NCBI GenBank assembly: GCA_046349035.1
Contig: JAXMDC010000002.1
Coordinates: 237,093 to 301,092, forward strand
Source: Bauldia sp.
GTDB taxonomy: Bacteria > Pseudomonadota > Alphaproteobacteria > Rhizobiales > Kaistiaceae
Length of the DNA: 64,000 bases
Direction of reading: 5' to 3'
Of this stretch, positions 29,814 to 64,000 are shown piece after piece (position 1 is the first letter of the stretch; every line of letters begins with the position of its first letter). The notes beneath the pieces were generated by a model. The model did no database searches, was not told the origin of the DNA, and was given only the letters and a program-made list of their open reading frames with translations. Both the position numbers and the translations under genes were made by a program.

Positions 29814-30077
29814 CTAACCCCCCACCACGCCCGCGGCGAAATGCGCGCCGAGGTAATACGGCCAGAGGATGATGCCGACGACGCCGTCCCAGAACGTCAG
29901 CTTCAAGTAGCCGATGGTGAAGAGCCAGGCGGCGAACCAGAGGCCGCCGAGATTGGCGTGCTGCTCGATCTTGATGCGCTGGCCGCTCCGGAAGACCTGC
30001 GTCTTGCCGTTGGTGGTGACGGCGACTTCCTCGCCTTCGCCCTTGCGGGTGTTGATCTCGATCGTTGCCTGACCCAT
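29814..30077 (-). CDS. Small membrane protein; paralog of the 30283..30471 protein.
   Basis: 87 aa. LGGLWFAAWLFTIGYLKLTFWDGVVGIILWPYYLGAHFA aligns with LAGMVWFAAWLFSIGYLRLSFGQGILALLLWPYYLGRAFA. Confidence 0.5.
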   Translation of the reverse strand: MGQATIEINTRKGEGEEVAVTTNGKTQVFRSGQRIKIEQHANLGGLWFAAWLFTIGYLKLTFWDGVVGIILWPYYLGAHFAAGVVGG

Positions 30078-30282
30078 GGCATCGCCCTCCTGAAACTGCG
30101 GGCGCCGGCCGGCCCTTGGCCGTAACGGCCCCTAAGGCGCGGCGCTTTGCGGCGCCGCTGTGCTGGACTGGGGCGGTTATCTCGCCCCGCCGCGCCAAAC
30201 CGGCTCGACCTTACGATTCACATGGGGCGCCTCGGCCGCCCCGACAACTCCGTAGCCTGCCGGAGCGCCGGTGCCGGCGGCC

Positions 30283-30471
30283 TCAGGGCGCGCCGCGGAG
30301 CCGCCCGGCAAACGCCCGGCCGAGATAGTAGGGCCACAGCAGCAGCGCCAGGATGCCTTGACCGAACGAGAGGCGGAGATAGCCGATCGAGAACAGCCAG
30401 GCGGCGAACCAGACCATCCCGGCGAGATTGCTGGCGGTGTTGACGACGAGGGCAAAGCCTTCCTGCGGCAT
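30283..30471 (-). CDS. Small membrane protein (62 aa); paralog of the 29814..30077 protein.
   Basis: Start at the internal MPQEGFALVVNTASNLAGMVWFAAWLF.... The upstream part of the ORF is Arg/Pro junk. Confidence 0.45.
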   Translation of the reverse strand: MPQEGFALVVNTASNLAGMVWFAAWLFSIGYLRLSFGQGILALLLWPYYLGRAFAGRLRGAP

Positions 30472-31216
30472 GGTGCAACCCTCCGGGCCGCCTCCGCGCG
30501 GCCCCGTTGGAACTCGGCCTCCCCGAGAATGGCGCCCCTTATCGGCGTCCGTTTGGCGCCGGCCGCCTGACGGCGACGCCGAAGCAGCGCTGGGGCAAGG
30601 CCGGGCGGGACGGGACGGCCCAGGCAGACCGTCGATCCGTTCCCGCGGCGGCCCAGCCCCGCGTGCGTCGTTCAGCTCCCGGCCGGACAAGAGGCCCGAC
30701 CCTCAAAACCGCTTCCTCACCAGCGGCAACTCGGCTCGGCCGCCGCCACGCAGCCGCCGAAGGAGCCCCGCGCGGGGGAGCGGAAGCGGGCCGCACCCCC
30801 GTCGCCCGTCCGCCAGCACACGGCGCCTCCCGAGGGGAGGCCCGCCCGGCGGCGGGTTGTGGCGGACGGAGAAGGGCTCGTTGGCGACGATAGCTACCCT
30901 TCTCCGACCGCATGTCGAGGCCAAGGCCCCGACCCACGTGCCGATCCCACCGCCATTATGGCTGCCGGGAGAGAGCCCGCCCCTCACGCCGGCGCTGGTA
31001 GCCGGATCAGCGTTTGCACCATGCCTCGGCACTGCCGCCGCGGCCTTGATCCAAAGCAAGGCACGGGGGGTGTGCACGGCTCGCCGGCGGCCCGTCAGGG
31101 CGCAGCCGGCCGCCGCCGCGGAGCAGGCGAGGCGAGGCCCGGCGCCCGCGCGCTTTTCCCGCTTTTTTCCCGCCGCCTTCTATATGCTGCCGGCAAGCCC
31201 TATATCCGGAACCCCT

Positions 31217-38191: not shown

Positions 38192-38269
38192 CGCCGGGCG
38201 CCGAAGAGACCCGGCGGGACGCCGCCCGGCGGCGTCCGCATATCCATGTTGCTCAAGGAGAATGTGGCT
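38192..38269 (+). ncRNA. ROSE-like RNA-thermometer 5'UTR of hsp20 (candidate).
   Basis: About 78-nt leader with stacked hairpins, including a perfect one: GGACGCCG-cccg-CGGCGTCC. The 3' end UUGCUCAAGGAGAAUGUGGCUAUG resembles the ROSE SD hairpin (UUGCU... GGAG... GGCUAUG). Confidence 0.4.
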
Positions 38270-38758
38270 ATGACGACCTTCGATCTTACTCCGCTGTGGC
38301 GTTCCACCGTGGGCTTCGAACGGCTCTTCGACCTCGTCGATAAGGGCCTGTTCGATGACGAGCAGAAGTACCCGCCCTACGACATCGTCCGCACCGGCGA
38401 GGACCGCTTTCGCATCACCCTCGCGCTCGCCGGCTGGCAGCCCGAGGACGTGACCGTCACCGAACACCAGAACGTGTTGACGGTGGCCGGCCAGCGGAAC
38501 GGCGCGGCCCGCGCCGACGAGGGCCGCGACTATCTCTATCGTGGCATCGCCTCCCGCGCCTTCGAGCGGCGCTTCACGCTCTCCGACTATGTCGTGGTCA
38601 AAGGCGCCACTTTCGACAACGGCATGCTGCACATCGACCTCGAGCGCCAGGTGCCCGAGGCGATGAAGCCGCGTCGCGTCGAGATCGGGCGCCAGGGCAC
38701 CACTCTGGCGGCGCCGCCCGGCAAGGCGGCCAAGCTGGAGCACGTCAGGGCCGCCTGA
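38270..38758 (+). CDS. Small heat-shock protein (Hsp20/alpha-crystallin family).
   Basis: MTTFDLTPLWRSTVGFERLFDLVD...YPPYDIVRTGEDRFRITLALAGW...GMLHIDLER: IbpA/HspA-like. Strong AAGGAGA SD 8 nt upstream. Confidence 0.85.
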   Translation: MTTFDLTPLWRSTVGFERLFDLVDKGLFDDEQKYPPYDIVRTGEDRFRITLALAGWQPEDVTVTEHQNVLTVAGQRNGAARADEGRDYLYRGIASRAFERRFTLSDYVVVKGATFDNGMLHIDLERQVPEAMKPRRVEIGRQGTTLAAPPGKAAKLEHVRAA

Positions 38759-54827: not shown

Positions 54828-56615
54828 ATGGTGGGGATCGCGCGCCGCGTTGTCGTTGCCCTGTCGCTGGCCGCCGCGTTGCTCGCGGCGCCGGCCTTCG
54901 CCGACGACAAGACCGATTGCGACCGCGGCTCGCCGGATGCCCGCATCAAGAGCTGCACCGTCCTCATCACCATGGGGCTGCTGAAGGGGCACGACCTCGC
55001 CTCGATCTTCCTCAACCGCGGCACCGCCTACGGCCAGACCAATCGGCACGACGCGGCGCTCGCCGACTTCAACCGCGCCCTTCAGCTCTGGCCGGATTGG
55101 TGGGTCGCCCAGTCGGCTCGCGGCTACGTTTATTCGATGAAGGGGCAATACGACCTCGCCATCGCCGACTTTGGCCGCGTGATCCAGACCCAGCCGCGCG
55201 AGGCCGACGCCTATCTCGGCCGGGCCGATGCCTATCGCGGCAAGGGCCAGGCGGACCTCGCCATCGCCGATTTCACCAAGGCGATCGCGCTGAAGCCCGA
55301 CGCGGTGTTCGCCTTCGCCGGCCGTGCCGCGGCCTATCACAGCCTCAAGTCCTACGATCTCGCCATCGCCGATCTGACGCGGGCGATCCGCCTCAACCCG
55401 GATGTCGCGGCGTTCTTCGTTCGTCGCGGCGATGCCTACCGCGAGAAGTCGCAGACCGATCTCGCCCTTGCCGACTATGGCCAGGCGATCCGCCTCGCTC
55501 CGACCAGCGAGACCGCCTTGGCGAGCCGCGCCAGCCTCTACCGCGCCAAGGGCGATCACGACCGCGCCATCGCCGATTACGATGCGGCGATCGCGCTGAA
55601 GGCGGACTTCGGCACTGCGTTCCTTGGGCGCGGCCTCTCCTACGAGGCCAAGGGCGACCAGGCCAACGCTCTGGCGGACCTGGTCAATGCCGAGAAACTG
55701 CTTCCCGCCGACAGCCCGTTCCGCGCCGACGCCGCAAATCGCGTCGCCGCCCTGCGGGTCGCCGGCGCCGATGCGGCGCGCCTTGCCGCGCTGCAGGCTG
55801 CCGGCGCCGCTCCGCCTCCGGTCGCGGTCGCCGCCGCGCCCGCCGCTGTCGCCGCCGCTCCGGCCGCAGGGCCGCCTCCGGCCGCGGCGCCGATCCCGCT
55901 CGGGCGGCGCGTCGCCCTCGTCGTCGGCAATGGCGCCTATACCGGCGTGCCGGCGCTGCCCAACCCGACCGGCGATGCCGGCCTCGTCGCCGCCTCGCTG
56001 AAGGCGGTCGGCTTCGACGTCCGCGTCGTCAACAATGCCGGCCGCGACGACTTCCTGAAGGCGCTCCACGCCTTCCAGGGTCAGGCCGATGGCGCCGACT
56101 GGGCGGTGGTCTATTTCGCCGGCCACGGCATCGAAATGGGCGGCACCAACTTCCTCGTCCCGGTCGATGCCAAGCTCGCCGAGGACCGCGACGTTCCCGA
56201 CGAGACGGTGTCGCTCGACCGCGTGCTTGCTGCCGTCGACGGCGCGCGCGGCCTGAAGATGGTGGTGCTCGACGCCTGCCGTAACAACCCGTTCGTCGCC
56301 TCGATGAAGCGGAGCGGCGCATCGAGCCGCGCCGTCGGGCGGGGCCTCGCCCTGGTCGAGCCGGCGCAGGCAACCCTTGTCGCCTACGCCGCCAAGGCCG
56401 GCAGCGTCGCCTCCGACGGCGATGCCGGCAACAGCCCCTTCGCCAAGGCCTTCGCCCAGCGCGTCGGCGAGCCGGGCGTCGAAATCGGCAAGATGTTCCG
56501 CCTCGTCCGCGACGACGTCCTTGCCGCGACCGGCCAGAAGCAGGAGCCCTTCGTCTACGGCTCGCTCCCCGGCACCGACTTCTTCTTCAAGCCGCCGACC
56601 GTCGGCCAGCGCTAG
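54828..56615 (+). CDS. TPR-repeat / caspase-family (peptidase C14, orthocaspase) two-domain periplasmic protein.
   Basis: Signal peptide, then a TPR sensor domain homologous to the 12675 protein (DDKTDCDRGSPDARIKSCTVLITMG, AIADF repeats). Then an Ala/Pro linker. Then a caspase domain carrying the His-Cys dyad: YFAGHGIEMGGTNFLVPVDA and MVVLDACRNNPF. Confidence 0.8.
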   Translation: MVGIARRVVVALSLAAALLAAPAFADDKTDCDRGSPDARIKSCTVLITMGLLKGHDLASIFLNRGTAYGQTNRHDAALADFNRALQLWPDWWVAQSARGYVYSMKGQYDLAIADFGRVIQTQPREADAYLGRADAYRGKGQADLAIADFTKAIALKPDAVFAFAGRAAAYHSLKSYDLAIADLTRAIRLNPDVAAFFVRRGDAYREKSQTDLALADYGQAIRLAPTSETALASRASLYRAKGDHDRAIADYDAAIALKADFGTAFLGRGLSYEAKGDQANALADLVNAEKLLPADSPFRADAANRVAALRVAGADAARLAALQAAGAAPPPVAVAAAPAAVAAAPAAGPPPAAAPIPLGRRVALVVGNGAYTGVPALPNPTGDAGLVAASLKAVGFDVRVVNNAGRDDFLKALHAFQGQADGADWAVVYFAGHGIEMGGTNFLVPVDAKLAEDRDVPDETVSLDRVLAAVDGARGLKMVVLDACRNNPFVASMKRSGASSRAVGRGLALVEPAQATLVAYAAKAGSVASDGDAGNSPFAKAFAQRVGEPGVEIGKMFRLVRDDVLAATGQKQEPFVYGSLPGTDFFFKPPTVGQR

Positions 56616-58762: not shown

Positions 58763-59683
58763 CTAGCTTGGGCCGGCCGGCGGCTGATGCGCCAGTGCCG
58801 CGGTGACGATGTCGTTGATCGGCGCGGTCAGGCCGGTCGGCTTGACGACTAGTGGGGTCGGGCGCGTCACGCTCGCGGCAAGGCGGTTGACGAACCACAG
58901 CGGGCCTTGCGGCATCGCTGCCCGGCGGCCGGTCTTGAGCGCCACCGCCAAGCCGCCGCCCTGCGCCCGCGACACCTGCGCCGTGGCGGCGATGGCGTCC
59001 CAGGGGATACGTGCCTTGCTCAGACGCGCGTCGAAGATGCCGTCGCCGTCGATGGCGACCACCGTCGACGTGTCGCGGCTCGCAAGCGCATAGGTGAACG
59101 CCGCGAAAACGAAGACGAGGCCGAAGGCGGCGAACATGGCCGCGAGCAGCACGCGGCCGAACGGCGCCATGTCGCCGAAGCCCCGGAGGGCAATGGCGGT
59201 GGCGAGCCACAGCGAGAGCGCCGCCATGACCAGCGCGGCGGGCGCCGCGATGAGCGTCCAGTTCCGGTTCCAGCCTGCGGCGAAGGCGGGCGGCGCGGCC
59301 GGCTCATGCGTCAAGGCGAACTCCGCCCCGAGTTCGGCGCGAAGCGCCGCGGCGAGCGCCGCGACATCGGCGGCGTAGGCGGTCGCCGCCTCGGGATAGC
59401 CGAACAGCGCCGGCGGCTCCTTTTTTTTGGAGGTCTTGCGGAGTTGGCCGGCGGTCGCCTCCTCGTAGCGCTCGATCAGCGCCGCCGCCTGCGCCTTCAC
59501 CGCACCGGACAGCGGCAGCTGCTTGAGCCCGACCGCGTAGCCGAAGCGCCGCCGCGCCGCCTCGTTCTCCGCCCACAGGCAAACGCCGCCCTCGGCGGCA
59601 AGCGCCAGGCGCAGGGCATAGGTCGGAGCGGGAGAGGCGGCCATCGCCGGGGGGAGTAGCCGGACGGCGGGGGAGTTGTCCAA
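58763..59683 (-). CDS. Hypothetical membrane-associated protein. Contains a T8 homopolymer (59420-59427) encoding KKK.
   Basis: 306 aa. Soluble N-terminal domain, then 2-3 TM helices, then a C-terminal soluble region. Confidence 0.45.
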   Translation of the reverse strand: MDNSPAVRLLPPAMAASPAPTYALRLALAAEGGVCLWAENEAARRRFGYAVGLKQLPLSGAVKAQAAALIERYEEATAGQLRKTSKKKEPPALFGYPEAATAYAADVAALAAALRAELGAEFALTHEPAAPPAFAAGWNRNWTLIAAPAALVMAALSLWLATAIALRGFGDMAPFGRVLLAAMFAAFGLVFVFAAFTYALASRDTSTVVAIDGDGIFDARLSKARIPWDAIAATAQVSRAQGGGLAVALKTGRRAAMPQGPLWFVNRLAASVTRPTPLVVKPTGLTAPINDIVTAALAHQPPAGPS

Positions 59684-59766
59684 TCGGCTCTGGTGAACCG
59701 ATCCTTCCGGCGCGCCGGGGACGGGGACCGAAACCCGGGCGTCACGCGCCGCGGCCTAAGCCGGCG

Positions 59767-60138
59767 TTAGTCCTTAGCCGCAAGCCAAAACAGGAACCAT
59801 GCGATCGCGAAAGGCACACTGTTTGCGACACCCGCCATGGCCAGCGGCAAAAGGGAGCCGGCGATGAATGCCCGCGGGGCCGACGCGAAGATCAGCAGTC
59901 CGTAGAACGCACCGACAAGCAAGACGAAGAAGCCAACAAGGTACAGAGGGAGCCTACCAAGACGCCGCAACAGCGGTGCACGCTCTGCACCGACTTCGCC
60001 CTCCAACGCCTTCTCGTCATCCGACTGGTTCCGCCGCTTAGCGAAGAGGGAGAGCAGCGCAATTGCGCAGGCGAGCCCGATCCATGTCGCGTGGCGCGAG
60101 GCGTCGAGCGGGACGAACCGTCTCCCCGGAACCGACAT
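59767..60138 (-). CDS. Membrane protein, hypothetical. Lower-GC patch; start uncertain.
   Basis: Start placed at MSVPGRRF to avoid a 66-nt overlap with the upstream gene. 3 TM helices. Local GC drop at 59767-60060. Confidence 0.35.
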   Translation of the reverse strand: MSVPGRRFVPLDASRHATWIGLACAIALLSLFAKRRNQSDDEKALEGEVGAERAPLLRRLGRLPLYLVGFFVLLVGAFYGLLIFASAPRAFIAGSLLPLAMAGVANSVPFAIAWFLFWLAAKD

Positions 60139-60227
60139 GGCGGCCGCGCGTAGGTCTACTAGAACGGCTGCCACGCCGAACGCGGCGAGCGCCCGCCGCA
60201 GCGGGCTGAGCGCTCGCCAGCGTTGGA

Positions 60228-61544
60228 TCACCCCGCTTCCCCCGCCGCGATCCAGGTCAGCACCGCCTCGGAGAAGCCGTTGACGCGGCGCCACGCGCCG
60301 TGTCCGACGCCGTGCTGGTAGGAGGCGACGTTGATGACGATGCCGTTGCCTTTCGGCGCCGGCACGTCGTCATGCGCCTGCTCGTCGGTGAAGACGATGA
60401 GGCGCGTCCTGGCCTTGTCGACCTCGCCGACCGCCTTGCCGAGATAGGTGCCGCCATGCGGCTGGCTGGCGACGATTGCATCGCGGAGGGCAAAGCCGCG
60501 CCGCGGCGGCACCTTCTTCACCTTGTCGGAGAAGGTGAACACCTCGACGCTCTCGCACACCTCGCGGGCGAGGATGGCGAGGCCACACGCGGCTTCGAGC
60601 CGCGTCATCTCCGACTTCGCCGAGAGCGGCGAGTCCATCGAGCCGGAGACGTCGATGAGGAGCCGCGTCGGCCCGGCCAGGCGCTCCTGGCCGGCCAGCG
60701 ACTTCAGCATCGCCGCCTCAAGTTCGCTTTCGAAGTCCGGCGCGTAGCGTGCCGCTGTGATGAAGCGGTAGGGCAGGACCCGTTCGCTTTTCATCGCCGC
60801 GATCGCTTCGGCGATCGTCTCGCGCGGCACTTCCGCCGCCTGCATCAGGCGAAGGTTGCGCAGCAGCGCAAGGCCGCCGAGCTTCTTCTCGGCGATCAGC
60901 CGCTCGAAGGTGGCGCGCTTGTCCTTGCCGCCGGAGAGCGCCACTTCCCAGGTATCGGGCGGCGGCAGCGTGCCGTCGACGAGCTGCTTCCAGATCGCCT
61001 CCTGCGCCTTGTCCTTCGGCTTGGCGTGGACCAGGAACAGCACGTCCTTGAGGCGCACCGCCCCGTCGCGGTCGTACTTGGCAAGCTGATAGGCGTCGAA
61101 CTTGGCGAGCGCCTTGGCAAGGCCCTTCTTGACCTGCGCCGACACCGGCTGGCGCTTGCGCTGCTGCATCGGCCCGAGCGCCTCCGCCCAGTAGATGGCG
61201 AGGAACTCGGTCAGTTCGTCCGGCCGCTGGATCACTTTCTCCAGCGCTTCGGCGACAAGGCCGCGATGGGTCGCATGCCGCGCCATCTCGCGCACCACCA
61301 GCAGCGGCGCGTGTCGGAGCTTCATCGCCTCGCGCGCCTCGACGGCGAGCGCCAGGCACACCTCCGGCTCGACCTGCGGCACCAGCGCGGCGATCCGCTC
61401 GGCGATGGCGACGCCGTCTTCGTAGAACTGATCCTCCCAAAGGAGACAGTTCATCAGCGTCCGCTTGAGCTCGTCCGCCGGCGCGAAGCCGCGAGCGCGC
61501 CCGCCCTCATGCGTCCGCGGGCGAAGGAGCTTGTTGAGGCTGAC
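60228..61544 (-). CDS. TROVE-domain / von Willebrand A (MIDAS) protein, a Ro60/Rsr-like RNA-binding protein candidate.
   Basis: The N-terminus (THEGGRARGFAPADELKRTLMNCLLWEDQFYEDG...LRHAPLLVVREMA) follows the Ro60 TROVE pattern. C-terminal vWA with DxSxS MIDAS (LIDVSGSMDS) and ...RLIVFTDEQ. CAGGAGA SD upstream of MVSL. Confidence 0.6.
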   Translation of the reverse strand, partial: VSLNKLLRPRTHEGGRARGFAPADELKRTLMNCLLWEDQFYEDGVAIAERIAALVPQVEPEVCLALAVEAREAMKLRHAPLLVVREMARHATHRGLVAEALEKVIQRPDELTEFLAIYWAEALGPMQQRKRQPVSAQVKKGLAKALAKFDAYQLAKYDRDGAVRLKDVLFLVHAKPKDKAQEAIWKQLVDGTLPPPDTWEVALSGGKDKRATFERLIAEKKLGGLALLRNLRLMQAAEVPRETIAEAIAAMKSERVLPYRFITAARYAPDFESELEAAMLKSLAGQERLAGPTRLLIDVSGSMDSPLSAKSEMTRLEAACGLAILAREVCESVEVFTFSDKVKKVPPRRGFALRDAIVASQPHGGTYLGKAVGEVDKARTRLIVFTDEQAHDDVPAPKGNGIVINVASYQHGVGHGAWRRVNGFSEAVLTWIAAGEAG

Positions 61545-61886
61545 CATGGCGGTCTCCTGTTCTGTCGGGATGGAGGATAGGGGAAAACGGCGCGCGCGGG
61601 AGGGCGGCGGCGAAGGGCGGGTGTCGCGCGGCGCCGGCCGCGTGGCGTAGCGGCCTTTCCCGACACCGAGGAACCTGGCTGCTCCTTCGCGGGTACGCGG
61701 GTCTGGCGCGGGACGCGCAAACGCCAACCGACCGGCTGCCATGCCCCCCTCTGACTTGCGTCAAGGCCGCCGGGCTGGCTCTCCTTCTTGAAACGGTAAG
61801 CGAATCGTCGGTTGGTCCGGTTCGCCGGCGGCGCGACGCGCCGGTCGGCGGTTGGAACCAAACACCGCGAAGGGAGCTGTCAAGGA

Positions 61887-63689
61887 GTGGAACTCGCCAA
61901 CGGCGCCGCCGCCTTTGCCTATAAGGACCTGCTGCTGTTTCTTGCCACCGCCGCGGTGATCGTGCCGCTGGTCGGGCGGCTGAAGGTGCCGCCGCAGCTG
62001 GGGTTCCTGGTCGGGGGCCTGGCGCTCGGCCCCTTCGGCCTCGGCGCGCTCGCCAGACAAGTGCCGTGGCTCTCGGCCGTCGCCATCATCGACCTCGACG
62101 AAATCGCCCCGCTTGCCGAGTTTGGCGTCGCCTTCCTTCTGTTCGTCATCGGCCTCGAACTCTCGCTCGAGCGCTTGCAGCGCATGCGGAAACTCGTTTT
62201 CGGCATGGGCAGCCTGCAGGTGGTCGTCACATCGGCTGCCCTCGGCCTGATCGCCCTGCTGCTTGGCCAGTCGCCGGCGTCGGCTGCGGTGCTGGGGAGC
62301 GCCCTGGCGATGTCCTCGACCGCGCTGGTGCTGCCCTCGCTCGCCGAAGGACGGCGCGTCAACTCGGCGACCGGCCGCGCCAGCTTTGCCGTGCTGCTGT
62401 TCCAGGATCTTGCCGTCGCGCCGCTTCTGTTCATGGTGTCGCTCCTCGGCACCACCGAAGGCGCCGGGCTCGGCACCGGCATCCTCTACGCCCTGGCGCC
62501 GGCGGTGATCGCGCTCGTCGTGCTGGTGGTCGCCGGGCGGCTTGTCCTGCGCCCGCTGTTCCAACTCGCCGCCGCCACCAAGCGCAACGAGGTCTTCGTC
62601 GCCGCCTGCCTCCTCGTCGCCATCGGCACCGGCCTTCTCGTCGCCGCCGCCGGCCAGCCGATGGAACTCGGCGCCTTCATCGCCGGCCTGCTGCTCGCCG
62701 AGACCGAGTACCGCCGCCAGGTCGAGGTGACGATCCAGCCCTTCCAGGGTCTGCTGCTCGGCCTCTTTTTCGTCTCGGTCGGTGCCAGCCTGGACCTTTC
62801 GCTGCTGATCCGCGAGCCGCTGACGATCCTGGCGATCCTCGCCGGTTTCCTCGCGGTGAAGGCGGCGATCGCCTATCCGCTCGGTCTCGCCTTCCGCCTC
62901 TCGCGCTCGACCGCCGGCGAGGTGGCGCTGATGCTGGCGCCATCCGGCGAATTCGCGCTGGTGCTGATCGGCGCCGCCCTGGCGGTCAAAGTGGTGCCGG
63001 CCGGCCTCGGCTCGCTCGTCCTTGTCGCGGTCACGGTGTCGATGTTCGCCGTGCCGGTGATCGCCCGCCTGACCGAAGAATATGTCCGCCGCCCGGCCTA
63101 CGACGAAGCCGCGCTCGCCGGCCTCGCGCCGGCGCCGCATGACGGCCCGGCGCGGGTGATCGTCGTCGGCTTCGGCCGCGTCGGCGAACTGGTCGGGCAG
63201 ATGCTGAGCATGCACGGCATCCCCTATCTCGTCGTCGACGCCAATCCCGCGGTGGTCACCGCCAAGCGCGACGGCGGCATCCGCGCTTTCTACGGCGATG
63301 CCACGCAAGTCGAGCTGCTGCGGATCTGCGGCATCGCCAACGCCCTCGCACTCGCCGTCACCATGGACGACCCGGCAGCCACCGAATTGGTCGTCACTGC
63401 CGCCCGGGCCGAGCGGCCTGACATCCCGATCATCGCCCGCGCCCGCGACGCCTCGCACGCGCAAAAGCTCTACGGTCTCAGCGTCACCGACGCCGTGCCG
63501 GAAAACATCGAGGCGAGCCTCCAGCTGTCCGAGGCGCTGCTTGCCGGCATTGGCGTGCCGATGGGCAAGGTCATCGCCTCGGTGCACGAGAAGCGGGCCG
63601 AACTCCGCGGCCTCCTCAAGGCGCCGCCGGGCAGTCCGGAACGCCGCGCCGTCCGCCCTGCCACCCGCCCGCCAGGGGGTGCGGCCTAG
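61887..63689 (+). CDS. kefB: CPA2-family monovalent cation/H+ antiporter with C-terminal RCK/TrkA-N domain (KefB/KefC-like). GTG start.
   Basis: 12 TM helices with Na_H_Exchanger motifs (FGVAFLLFVIGLELSLERL, GEFALVLIG), then the Rossmann VIVVGFGRVGELVGQML...PYLVVD. AAGGAG SD before the GTG. Confidence 0.85.
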   Translation: MELANGAAAFAYKDLLLFLATAAVIVPLVGRLKVPPQLGFLVGGLALGPFGLGALARQVPWLSAVAIIDLDEIAPLAEFGVAFLLFVIGLELSLERLQRMRKLVFGMGSLQVVVTSAALGLIALLLGQSPASAAVLGSALAMSSTALVLPSLAEGRRVNSATGRASFAVLLFQDLAVAPLLFMVSLLGTTEGAGLGTGILYALAPAVIALVVLVVAGRLVLRPLFQLAAATKRNEVFVAACLLVAIGTGLLVAAAGQPMELGAFIAGLLLAETEYRRQVEVTIQPFQGLLLGLFFVSVGASLDLSLLIREPLTILAILAGFLAVKAAIAYPLGLAFRLSRSTAGEVALMLAPSGEFALVLIGAALAVKVVPAGLGSLVLVAVTVSMFAVPVIARLTEEYVRRPAYDEAALAGLAPAPHDGPARVIVVGFGRVGELVGQMLSMHGIPYLVVDANPAVVTAKRDGGIRAFYGDATQVELLRICGIANALALAVTMDDPAATELVVTAARAERPDIPIIARARDASHAQKLYGLSVTDAVPENIEASLQLSEALLAGIGVPMGKVIASVHEKRAELRGLLKAPPGSPERRAVRPATRPPGGAA

Positions 63690-63749
63690 GCGTCCCTTGC
63701 CAGCGCCCGGCGCTGCGGCGAGTGTCGGGGCAGCCGGGGAGGATCGCCC

Positions 63750-64000
63750 ATGACCATCGTCGACGCCTTCACCTATCGGGGCCTCGCCAACGCTTCGGCC
63801 GCGGTTGCGCTGAGCGGCGACCGCTTCGCCGTCGCCGACGACGAGCGGAGCGTGCTCACCGTGTTCCGCCGCGGCGTCGCCGAGGCGGTGGCAAGCCTGC
63901 CGCTCGGCGAGTTCCTCGGGCTCGGCGACCGCACCGAGAGCGACCTTGAAGGCGCTGCGGCGATCGACGGCTCCGTCTATTGGATTACCTCGCACGGTCT
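63750..64000 (+). CDS. Hypothetical protein, 5' part. The gene continues beyond the window.
   Basis: MTIVDAFTYRGLANASAAVALSGDRFAVADDERSVLTVFRRGVAEAV...AIDGSVYWITSHG. Open to the window end. GGGGAGG SD upstream. Confidence 0.4.
   Translation, partial: MTIVDAFTYRGLANASAAVALSGDRFAVADDERSVLTVFRRGVAEAVASLPLGEFLGLGDRTESDLEGAAAIDGSVYWITSHG

What the first reader, a model, noticed from the sequence alone, without database searches (positions are those of the whole stretch)
60139..61886. Ro60/Rsr-like TROVE+vWA protein whose flanking DNA should be searched for a Y-RNA
The 438-aa protein follows the Ro60 TROVE N-terminal pattern and has a C-terminal vWA with a MIDAS motif. In Deinococcus, Salmonella and Mycobacterium, rsr is adjacent to one or more Y-RNA genes (YrlA-type, tRNA-like module). 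Here there are about 340 nt of untranslated sequence upstream (61545-61886, rich in hairpins such as CCGGCGG...CCGCCGG) and a ~90-nt gap downstream (60139-60227). An alphaproteobacterial Y-RNA/Rsr pair would be noteworthy.
Basis: partly seen in the sequence, partly recalled or inferred. Interest (0 to 1): 0.55.

Follow-up and report, generated by a model that had tools for sequence, protein, structure and literature searches.

The report
Ro60-like gene without its Y RNAs
The gene really encodes a bacterial Ro60/Rsr ring protein. The small Y RNAs that sit just upstream of this gene in every relative examined are absent here, so it is an ordinary known gene with one mildly curious gap.

Summary
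Window 60228-61547 (-) encodes an intact 439-aa Ro60/Rsr-type protein. Pfam TROVE scores E 2e-17. The vWA domain has a complete MIDAS site. The predicted fold matches every solved Ro60, and the closest is phiRo60 of Thermus phage phiLo. The predicted Y RNA is not there. Rfam finds no YrlA or Y_RNA in either flank. I built two covariance models from 110 Y-RNA units that lie upstream of the same gene in relatives. True units score 32-130 bits; the best hit in the whole 64-kb window is 16 bits, antisense to a plausible small ORF (not checked by homology). Profile HMMs also find nothing, nor do searches of other assemblies that reach 4.6 kb upstream. All 80 species-representative relatives (68-78% identity) carry 1-8 tandem YrlA-like units on the same strand upstream, and 33 carry rtcB downstream. 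Three closer relatives (81-82%) carry arrays too. Only the window and its nearest relative (about 88%) lack them. The protein is still under purifying selection: 220 of 225 family-invariant positions are kept, and dN/dS is 0.19. The upstream spacer folds no better than shuffled sequence. Alphaproteobacterial Rsr/YrlA pairs were already published in 2014. Verdict: a new member of a known family, an rsr gene uncoupled from its Y-RNA array. Low to moderate interest.

The parts
60228..61547 (-). rsr-like gene: 439-aa Ro60/TROVE protein, intact ORF (ATG 61547-61545, TGA 60230-60228)
   Evidence: ORF and sequence. Pfam TROVE E 2e-17. 100% identical to an NCBI Bauldia sp. TROVE protein. PDB phiRo60 9KOP/9L5Y E 2.4e-25 over residues 11-435. 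Foldseek top 13 hits are all Ro60.
60684..61517 (-). HEAT-repeat (TROVE) ring part, about residues 11-288
   Evidence: Pfam TROVE match. All-helical in the AlphaFold model, helices H23-283. Aligned to the HEAT domain of phiRo60.
60267..60680 (-). vWA domain, about residues 290-427. MIDAS residues: D299/S301/S303 (60639-60653), T367 (60447-60449), D388 (60384-60386).
   Evidence: VWA_2 24.2 bits and vWA_Ro60 19.2 bits, both just under their cut-offs. Alternating strands and helices in the model. MIDAS residues are invariant in 38 homologues and align with the phiRo60 Ca2+ ligands D322/S324/T391/D416.
61548..61886 (-). Upstream spacer shared with the divergent antiporter gene. It holds the Shine-Dalgarno AGGAGA (61553-61558), a CU-rich leader motif CTATCCTCCA and a TTGAC box (61760-61764), all three also present in the nearest relative. 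It holds no Y RNA.
   Evidence: No Rfam hit. No hit with R1 or R2, filters off. nhmmer finds nothing even at E<=1000 on the first 264 nt of the spacer searched alone (61548-61811); the whole-window nhmmer run at E<=10 covers the remaining 61812-61886 and also finds nothing. Folding z +0.29 and -0.54. Alignment with L084.
60177..60226 (-). Strong imperfect hairpin directly after the rsr stop codon. It may be a transcript-end or stabiliser hairpin, or it may lie inside the next ORF. It is not a Y RNA.
   Evidence: MFE -50.6 kcal/mol, z -2.42. R2 scores this stretch 6.3 bits. Only a chance-level Rfam hit, Scr6925 E 6.7. It is not repeated in the window.
59767..60233 (-). Next ORF on the same strand, a small hydrophobic protein with no family. 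It starts either at GTG 60233 (4-nt overlap with the rsr stop) or at ATG 60138.
   Evidence: the ORF listing. Gene calls of 154 aa in L081/L082 and 123 aa in L083. No Pfam hit. Not found beside rsr in any relative.
61812..63689 (+). Divergently transcribed KefB-type cation/proton antiporter gene (Na_H_Exchanger + TrkA_N). This is the upstream neighbour, occupying the place where relatives have the Y-RNA array.
   Evidence: Pfam E 2.4e-48 and 2.1e-24. The same arrangement appears in another assembly that continues into yidD and rnpA.

Best explanation
This is an intact gene for a Ro60/Rsr ring protein: a HEAT-repeat TROVE ring closed by a vWA domain with a metal site. It belongs to a compact (about 440 aa) alphaproteobacterial subfamily whose nearest solved relative is phiRo60 of Thermus phage phiLo.

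In that subfamily the gene normally sits in a cassette made of an array of 1-8 YrlA-like Y RNAs, then rsr, then often rtcB. In this Bauldia genome, and in its closest relative, only the rsr ORF and a leader of roughly 45-60 nt remain. The gene lies between a divergent KefB-type antiporter gene and unrelated small membrane-protein ORFs. There is no Y RNA in either flank and no rtcB.

Shown here: the protein family, the fold, the absence of Y-RNA-like sequence in about 66 kb, and purifying selection on the protein.

Inferred: the protein still works as an RNA-binding ring in RNA quality control. In other Ro60 proteins, single-stranded 3' ends of misfolded RNAs enter the central hole, and in D. 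radiodurans and phage phiLo PNPase acts as a partner. Its Y RNAs, if it uses any, would be encoded elsewhere in the genome and act in trans.
For: Protein identity: Pfam TROVE E 2e-17. phiRo60 E 2.4e-25 over the full length. AlphaFold model pLDDT 79 whose 13 best PDB matches are all Ro60. MIDAS residues invariant.

Absence of Y RNA:
- Rfam at gathering score over 64 kb finds only a ROSE element.
- Rfam at E<=10 over 59600-62200 finds no YrlA or Y_RNA.
- ARAGORN finds no tRNA-like gene.
- Models R1 and R2 score true units 32-130 bits. Their best window hits are 13.6 and 16.2 bits, far from the gene; the 16.2-bit hit is antisense to a small ORF.
- nhmmer profiles for the 5' half, the 3' half and the whole unit give 0 hits at E<=10.
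- No hit in L081-L083, which carry the same gene in three other assemblies and reach 4.6 kb upstream.

Contrast with relatives: 80 of 80 carry same-strand upstream units, with a median of 55 nt between the last unit and the ATG. Relatives at 81-82% identity carry 2-6 units. The nearest relative, at about 88%, also lacks them and has different neighbours.

rtcB is present in 33 of 80 relatives and absent from the window.

Selection: 220 of 225 positions that are >=95% conserved in the family are retained. dN/dS is 0.19 between the two array-less genes.
Against: Only about 66 kb of a genome of more than 1 Mb could be searched, so unlinked Y RNAs or a second rsr copy with its own array cannot be seen.

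No expression data exist, and no sigma-70-like promoter was found by the simple scan.

NCBIfam's Rsr equivalog model is far from met (28.7 against 900 bits), so orthology with Salmonella or Deinococcus Rsr in the strict sense is not established.

The structure model has only moderate global confidence (pTM 0.53, TM 0.5-0.6 to solved Ro60).
Confidence: 0.8

Rival explanations
1. A Y RNA is encoded in one of the flanks but is too divergent for the models used. The candidates are the 339-nt upstream spacer and the hairpin after the stop codon.
For: The upstream spacer is long for a bacterial 5' region, and gene callers leave it uncalled. The downstream hairpin folds better than shuffles, z -2.4. 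A loose resemblance exists between GCGCCGTTTTCCCC at about -42 and the 3' strand consensus TCGCCnGTTCCCC.
Against: The protein keeps 220 of 225 family-invariant residues. Its cognate RNA should therefore keep the invariant GGUGGUGAAG / GUUCCCC helix, which is identical in 89 of 89 aligned tRNA-like units. That helix is absent here. nhmmer on the first 264 nt of the spacer alone finds nothing at E<=1000. The spacer folds no better than shuffles. Apart from the last ~45 nt before the ATG and a few short islands, the spacer shows only about 50% identity with the nearest relative's. The hairpin has no bulged helix or tRNA-like arm and may be coding.
Confidence: 0.06
2. The protein now works without any Y RNA. 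The array was lost and the Ro ring acts alone on misfolded RNAs.
For: No Y RNA in about 66 kb. The nearest relative also lacks an array, and the pair show dN/dS 0.19, so the array-less state looks stable and selected. From published work: Ro60 binds misfolded RNAs through its central cavity independently of Y RNA (structures 2I91 and 9NEP listed). Chen et al. 2014 found no YrlA near rsr in 49 of 303 species (PMC4201824).
Against: Near-complete retention of family-invariant residues is most simply explained if the Y-RNA-binding surface is still in use. The rest of the genome was not searched.
Confidence: 0.25
3. The gene is a decaying or recently transferred remnant with no function in this host.
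For: It lacks both usual partners, the Y-RNA array and rtcB. None of its neighbours is shared with any relative. No promoter-like site was found.
Against: The ORF is full length. The same protein sequence occurs in four assemblies from different samples. dN/dS is 0.19, 220 of 225 invariant residues are kept, and a good Shine-Dalgarno is conserved with the nearest relative. The upstream context beyond the antiporter gene includes the housekeeping genes yidD and rnpA, and no Pfam-recognisable mobile-element gene was called in the ~11 kb of L081 or ~4.6 kb of L082 around rsr, though several neighbouring ORFs have no family assignment.
Confidence: 0.04

Closest known systems
phiRo60 of Thermus phage phiLo with Yrl1/Yrl2 (PDB 9KOP, 9L5Y; PMC12135203)
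   Same: It is the best sequence and fold match: E 2.4e-25 over the full length, Foldseek E 6e-18, 25-26% identity. It has the same split HEAT ring with an inserted vWA domain, the same metal ligands and a C-terminal helix returning to the ring.
   Different: phiRo60 is about 60 residues longer, is phage-encoded, and has its Y-like RNAs in the same genome. Here the gene sits beside chromosomal housekeeping genes, and no Y-like RNA lies within about 66 kb.
Salmonella Typhimurium rsr-yrlBA-rtcBA RNA repair operon (Chen 2013/2014; PMC7790460)
   Same: It combines a Ro60 orthologue, YrlA-type tRNA-like Y RNAs and the RtcB ligase in one cassette. That is the arrangement seen in 33 of 80 relatives of the window gene.
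   Different: In the window neither YrlA nor rtcB is present. No sigma-54 promoter was found. In relatives the Y RNAs lie upstream of rsr in arrays of up to 8, not two downstream. The NCBIfam Rsr equivalog score is not met.
YrlA RNA family (Rfam RF02553; Chen et al. 2014, PMC4201824)
   Same: The upstream units of relatives have the YrlA design. A Ro-binding helix closes a permuted tRNA-like domain made of a T arm, an acceptor-like stem and a D arm. They lie on the same strand within 4 kb of rsr.
   Different: They reach only 30-48 bits against RF02553 (gathering score 69) in locus L040, and only over the tRNA-like part. No unit reaches the gathering score in 22 loci. Their helix motif is GGUGAAG rather than GNCGAA(N)G. 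About half of the units lack a complete tRNA-like domain. None is present in the window.
Deinococcus radiodurans Rsr-Yrn1-PNPase (RYPER); structure 2NVO
   Same: Same ring-plus-vWA fold (Foldseek E 6e-13). Its role in structured-RNA decay is the role inferred here.
   Different: Sequence similarity is marginal (E 0.005 over 130 residues). Yrn1 is encoded next to rsr there, and nothing equivalent is found here.

Membership tests
Ro60/Rsr (TROVE) protein | TROVE (HEAT-repeat) domain recognised by the family HMM | tested here: met
   PF05731, 63.9 bits against a cut-off of 23, E 2e-17.
Ro60/Rsr (TROVE) protein | C-terminal vWA domain with a MIDAS metal site | tested here: met
   D299-x-S301-x-S303, T367 and D388 are invariant in 38 homologues. 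They align with the phiRo60 Ca2+ ligands. The Pfam vWA models are just under their cut-offs (24.2 against 27; 19.2 against 27.7).
Ro60/Rsr (TROVE) protein | Closed ring ('doughnut') fold | tested here: met
   AlphaFold model pLDDT 79, pTM 0.53. The 13 best PDB matches are all Ro60, with probability 1.00 and TM 0.49-0.59. Ring closure itself was not measured.
Ro60/Rsr (TROVE) protein | NCBIfam equivalog NF041674 'RNA-binding protein Rsr' | tested here: not met
   28.7 bits against a cut-off of 900, with only residues 73-197 aligned. It is a distinct subfamily and not an equivalog of the curated Rsr set.
Ro60/Rsr (TROVE) protein | Binds Y RNA and misfolded RNA | not testable with these tools
   Needs RIP-seq or EMSA.
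Rsr-Y RNA gene pair (criterion of Chen et al. 2014) | YrlA-like RNA on the same strand within 4 kb of rsr | tested here: not met
   No hit with Rfam, R1/R2 with filters off or nhmmer. The search covered 4.6 kb upstream and 60 kb downstream. The criterion is met in 80 of 80 relatives.
YrlA RNA (RF02553) in the window | tRNA-like T arm, acceptor-like stem and D arm | tested here: not met
   ARAGORN finds 0 genes in the window. No Rfam tRNA or YrlA hit.
YrlA RNA (RF02553) in the window | Conserved Ro-binding helix (here GGUGGUGAAG / GUUCCCC) | tested here: not met
   The motif-pair scan gave only two chance pairs, 17-28 kb from rsr. The half-site HMMs gave no hit.
rsr-Y RNA-rtcB RNA repair cassette | rtcB next to rsr | tested here: not met
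   tblastn with a relative's RtcB finds nothing better than E 0.34 in 64 kb. rtcB is present in 33 of 80 relatives.
rsr-Y RNA-rtcB RNA repair cassette | Sigma-54 promoter / RtcR control | tested here: not met
   No TGGCAC-N5-TTGCW-like site with the conserved GG dinucleotide and a TG or GC at the -12 position, at up to 3 mismatches, in the spacer. Only 2 single-mismatch sites occur in 80 relatives' upstream regions. An rtcR gene was not searched for.

The most novel reading that the evidence does not exclude
This Bauldia lineage could be a natural case of a Ro60 orthologue kept under purifying selection after losing every Y RNA, in a subfamily where all other members examined carry multi-copy Y-RNA arrays. 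That would show that the bacterial Ro ring has a selectable Y-RNA-independent function. It would also offer a matched pair of lineages, with and without arrays, for asking what Y RNAs add.
Probability: 0.2. Interest if true: 0.45.

Novelty: new member of a known kind. Interest (0 to 1): 0.25.

Why it matters
The gene itself is an already annotated TROVE/Ro60 family member, so its identity adds little.

What has some value is the contrast. In 83 relatives the gene is physically coupled to arrays of YrlA-like RNAs, while here and in one close relative it is uncoupled yet still conserved. If the whole genome proves to lack Y RNAs, this would be a natural experiment on Y-RNA-independent Ro function. 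If Y RNAs lie elsewhere, it shows that the usual rule of looking within 4 kb can fail.

As a by-product, the alphaproteobacterial Y-RNA arrays found in the relatives are missed by Rfam's YrlA threshold. The alignments made here could be used to annotate them.

Tried and rejected
- Rfam. At gathering score over the window the only hit is ROSE at 38194. At E<=10 over 59600-62200 there are only chance miRNA, sRNA and lncRNA hits.
- ARAGORN on the window: no tRNA-like gene.
- Neighbour conservation. None of the window's five neighbouring proteins occurs beside rsr in any of 80 loci, so context gives no functional hint.
- Motif-pair scan (GGTGGTGAAGA followed by TGTTCCCC within 50-300 nt). It gave two chance pairs, 17-28 kb from rsr.
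- Best R2 hit, 30003-30085 (+), 16.2 bits. Rejected: it is on the opposite strand, 30 kb away, with a poor match to the invariant bases, and antisense to a plausible 87-aa membrane-protein ORF.
- 'Relic' idea, that GCGCCGTTTTCCCC at about -42 is the leftover 3' strand of a deleted last unit. It is unsupported: the 3'-half HMM finds nothing in the spacer even at E<=1000, while true sites score 16-21 bits.
- Sigma-54 promoter as in Salmonella rtc: none. Sigma-70 consensus scan: none.
- The downstream hairpin as a repeated (REP-like) element: it is not repeated in the window.
- The 504-aa extended ORF from ATG 61742. Rejected because all homologues start at the MVSLNK position.
- Checking whether Chen et al. 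2014 listed Bradyrhizobium or Bauldia: the supplementary tables are not held.

Full report
**The observation**

The minus strand carries an ORF that ends at 60228. All homologues begin at the MVSLNK... methionine (ATG 61547-61545), so the protein is 439 aa. It is 100% identical to a GenBank entry named 'TROVE domain-containing protein [Bauldia sp.]'.

- Pfam assigns the N-terminal part to TROVE (PF05731, 63.9 bits, E 2e-17). The C-terminal part gets vWA models just below their cut-offs.
- The MIDAS residues D299-x-S301-x-S303, T367 and D388 are invariant in 38 homologues. They align with the Ca2+ ligands D322/S324/T391/D416 of phiRo60.
- Sequence search of the PDB gives phiRo60 of Thermus phage phiLo (9KOP/9L5Y) at E 2.4e-25 over residues 11-435. 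D. radiodurans Rsr (2NVO) appears only at E 0.005.
- An AlphaFold model (pLDDT 79, pTM 0.53) has the solved Ro60 proteins as its 13 best PDB matches: phage, Deinococcus, Xenopus and human, all with probability 1.00.
- NCBIfam's Rsr equivalog is not met (28.7 against 900 bits).

The protein is therefore a Ro60-fold TROVE/vWA protein of a compact, phiRo60-like subfamily, not a strict equivalog of the curated Rsr set.

**The flanks**

Upstream, 339 nt (61548-61886) separate the ATG from a divergent KefB-type antiporter gene. This stretch folds no better than dinucleotide shuffles: z +0.29 for 264 nt and -0.54 for 339 nt.

Downstream, two of three gene calls start the next ORF at GTG 60233, overlapping the stop codon, so the 89-nt gap may be coding. 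It contains one strong hairpin at 60177-60226 (z -2.4). The hairpin is not repeated elsewhere and has no Y-RNA features.

**What relatives look like**

A scan of one genome per species returned 80 loci encoding proteins 68-78% identical. They come from Bradyrhizobium, Rhizomicrobium, Roseiarcus, Hyphomonadaceae, Caulobacterales and two Bauldia. None shares a neighbouring gene with the window.

Their upstream regions are similar to each other and internally repeated. The repeats are Y-RNA-like units:

- A helix is formed by an invariant 5' GGUGGUGAAG... and a 3' ...GUUCCCC.
- In about half the units this helix encloses a permuted tRNA-like domain (T arm GGTTCGAATCC, acceptor-like stem, D arm GTAGCTCAGTGGTAGAGC).
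- In locus L040, Rfam's YrlA model matches the tRNA-like part at 30-48 bits (E down to 2e-9), below its gathering score of 69. Rfam's tRNA model (there) and ARAGORN (in L001) also respond.
- RNAalifold supports the outer helix, T arm and acceptor-like stem, with compensatory changes at 15 of 21 pairs.
- A motif scan found 263 units.
- By nhmmer, 80 of 80 loci have at least one same-strand upstream unit (1-6 per locus, up to 8 by motif). The median distance from the last unit to the ATG is 55 nt.
- RtcB (PF01139, E 1e-66) follows the gene in 33 of 80 loci.

The subfamily's normal cassette is thus a Y-RNA array, then rsr, then often rtcB. This is a variant of the published Salmonella rsr-yrlBA-rtcBA arrangement.

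**The window lacks all of this**

I built covariance models R1 (21 short units) and R2 (89 tRNA-like units).

- True units score 32-130 bits with R2 and 19-69 bits with R1, including those of the two Bauldia relatives, whose units lie 1.0-1.5 kb upstream.
- With filters off over all 64 kb and both strands, the best hits are 13.6 bits (R1) and 16.2 bits (R2).
- The R2 hit, at 30003-30085 (+), is antisense to a plausible small membrane-protein ORF and 30 kb away.
- nhmmer profiles of the 5' half, the 3' half and the whole unit give no hit at E<=10. They give no hit even at E<=1000 on the first 264 nt of the spacer alone.
- The identical protein occurs in three other assemblies. One reaches 4.6 kb upstream, through the antiporter gene to yidD and rnpA, and there is no hit there either. 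Assembly collapse of a repeat array is therefore unlikely.
- No rtcB is present in the window, and no sigma-54 site lies in the spacer.

**When the array was lost**

Relatives at 81-82% identity (P0003, P0004, P0083) carry 2, 6 and 6 units, and two of them have rtcB. The nearest relative (P0002, about 88%) has no unit in 2.2 kb upstream and has different neighbours.

The two array-less genes share clearly only the last ~45 nt of leader, which holds a CU-rich CTATCCTCCA motif and the Shine-Dalgarno. Further upstream they share only a TTGAC box and a few short islands.

The protein has not decayed. It keeps 220 of the 225 positions that are >=95% conserved in 80 relatives. The five differences are A65L, T101A, D122E, R253K and D255E, and four of them are shared with P0002. 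dN/dS between the two is 0.19.

**Interpretation**

Shown:
- a Ro60-fold protein gene;
- no YrlA-type RNA within about 66 kb, although the family otherwise always has them;
- continued purifying selection.

Inferred: the protein still functions as an RNA-binding ring. The retention of essentially all invariant residues favours Y RNAs supplied from an unlinked locus or from a second cassette. Loss of Y RNAs altogether is the main alternative. A hidden divergent Y RNA in the flanks, or a dead gene, are both unlikely.

**Comparison with the literature**

Chen et al. 2014 (PMC4201824) found YrlA within 4 kb and on the same strand in 254 of 303 TROVE-containing species, including the alphaproteobacterium Rhizobium etli. 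An alphaproteobacterial pair is therefore not new, and an rsr without a detectable neighbour is not unprecedented: about one in six in that survey. phiRo60 (PMC12135203) shows that this compact type forms the canonical ring, binds Y-like RNAs and engages PNPase.

**Verdict**

The gene is a new member of a known family with an unusual uncoupled context. Interest is low to moderate.

Noticed in passing
L001-L080, L086, L088, L089 (for example L040:3076-3802, L006:3265-3962, L086:401-1290): Every relative of the window gene carries a tandem array of 1-8 YrlA-like units directly upstream on the same strand. A motif scan found 263 units in 79 of the 80 genome-scan loci (L001-L080). The arrays span a median of 650 nt and are probably processed from the rsr leader transcript.
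   Followed up: partly
22 related loci: None of these units reaches Rfam's YrlA (RF02553) gathering score. In the one locus examined below threshold (L040), the match covers only the tRNA-like part (model positions 23-89, at most 48 bits). Standard Rfam annotation therefore misses this alphaproteobacterial Y-RNA subfamily. Alignments A1 and A2 could seed a better model.
   Followed up: partly
Units listed: The units are heterogeneous. 126 of 263 have both T and D arms. 22 are short (about 85 nt): the Ro-binding helix plus a small stem-loop. About 115 have other inserts, for example about 185-nt units with a T arm only plus a long extra hairpin. Different unit types recur at fixed positions in Bradyrhizobium arrays.
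   Followed up: no
L040:3156-3298; L001:2347-2442; L074:3839-3909: Rfam's tRNA model (44.9 bits) joins the D arm of one unit to the T arm of the next across a 75-nt insert. ARAGORN calls a 'tRNA-???' with a 4-base anticodon inside a unit. L074 has a standard-length 71-nt match to Rfam's tRNA model (56.5 bits) between the last unit and rsr.
   Followed up: no
L034:375-696 and L039:2819-2989: In the two Bauldia relatives the units lie 1.0-1.5 kb upstream of rsr. An NlpC/P60 + SH3 gene sits on the opposite strand in between in L034. Linkage is thus already looser in this genus than in Bradyrhizobium.
   Followed up: partly
window 61574-61583 and 61553-61558; L084:2152-2190: The leader motif CTATCCTCCA, 15-25 nt upstream of the Shine-Dalgarno AGGAGA, is conserved between the two array-less genes. 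Its UCCU can pair with AGGA of the Shine-Dalgarno in the predicted fold. This could be a translational control element or mere shared ancestry.
   Followed up: no
window 38194-38276 (+): ROSE thermoregulator element (RF00435, 52.9 bits against a gathering score of 45), presumably in front of a small heat-shock gene.
   Followed up: no
window 29814-30077 (-) and 30283-30690 (-): Two neighbouring ORFs encode proteins sharing the hydrophobic motif WFAAWLF(T/S)IGYL(K/R)L(T/S)F...LWPYYLG. They look like paralogous small membrane proteins. No family was assigned.
   Followed up: no
window 54828-56615 (+): A 595-aa protein combining TPR repeats with a caspase-like Peptidase_C14 domain, according to the precomputed Pfam hits for the same gene in L081.
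   Followed up: no
window 61812-63824 (+): The antiporter ORF ends at 63689 in the window (625 aa from TTG 61812). The same gene is called as 645 aa in assembly L082, equivalent to 61887-63824. The two assemblies must differ near the 3' end of this gene.
   Followed up: no
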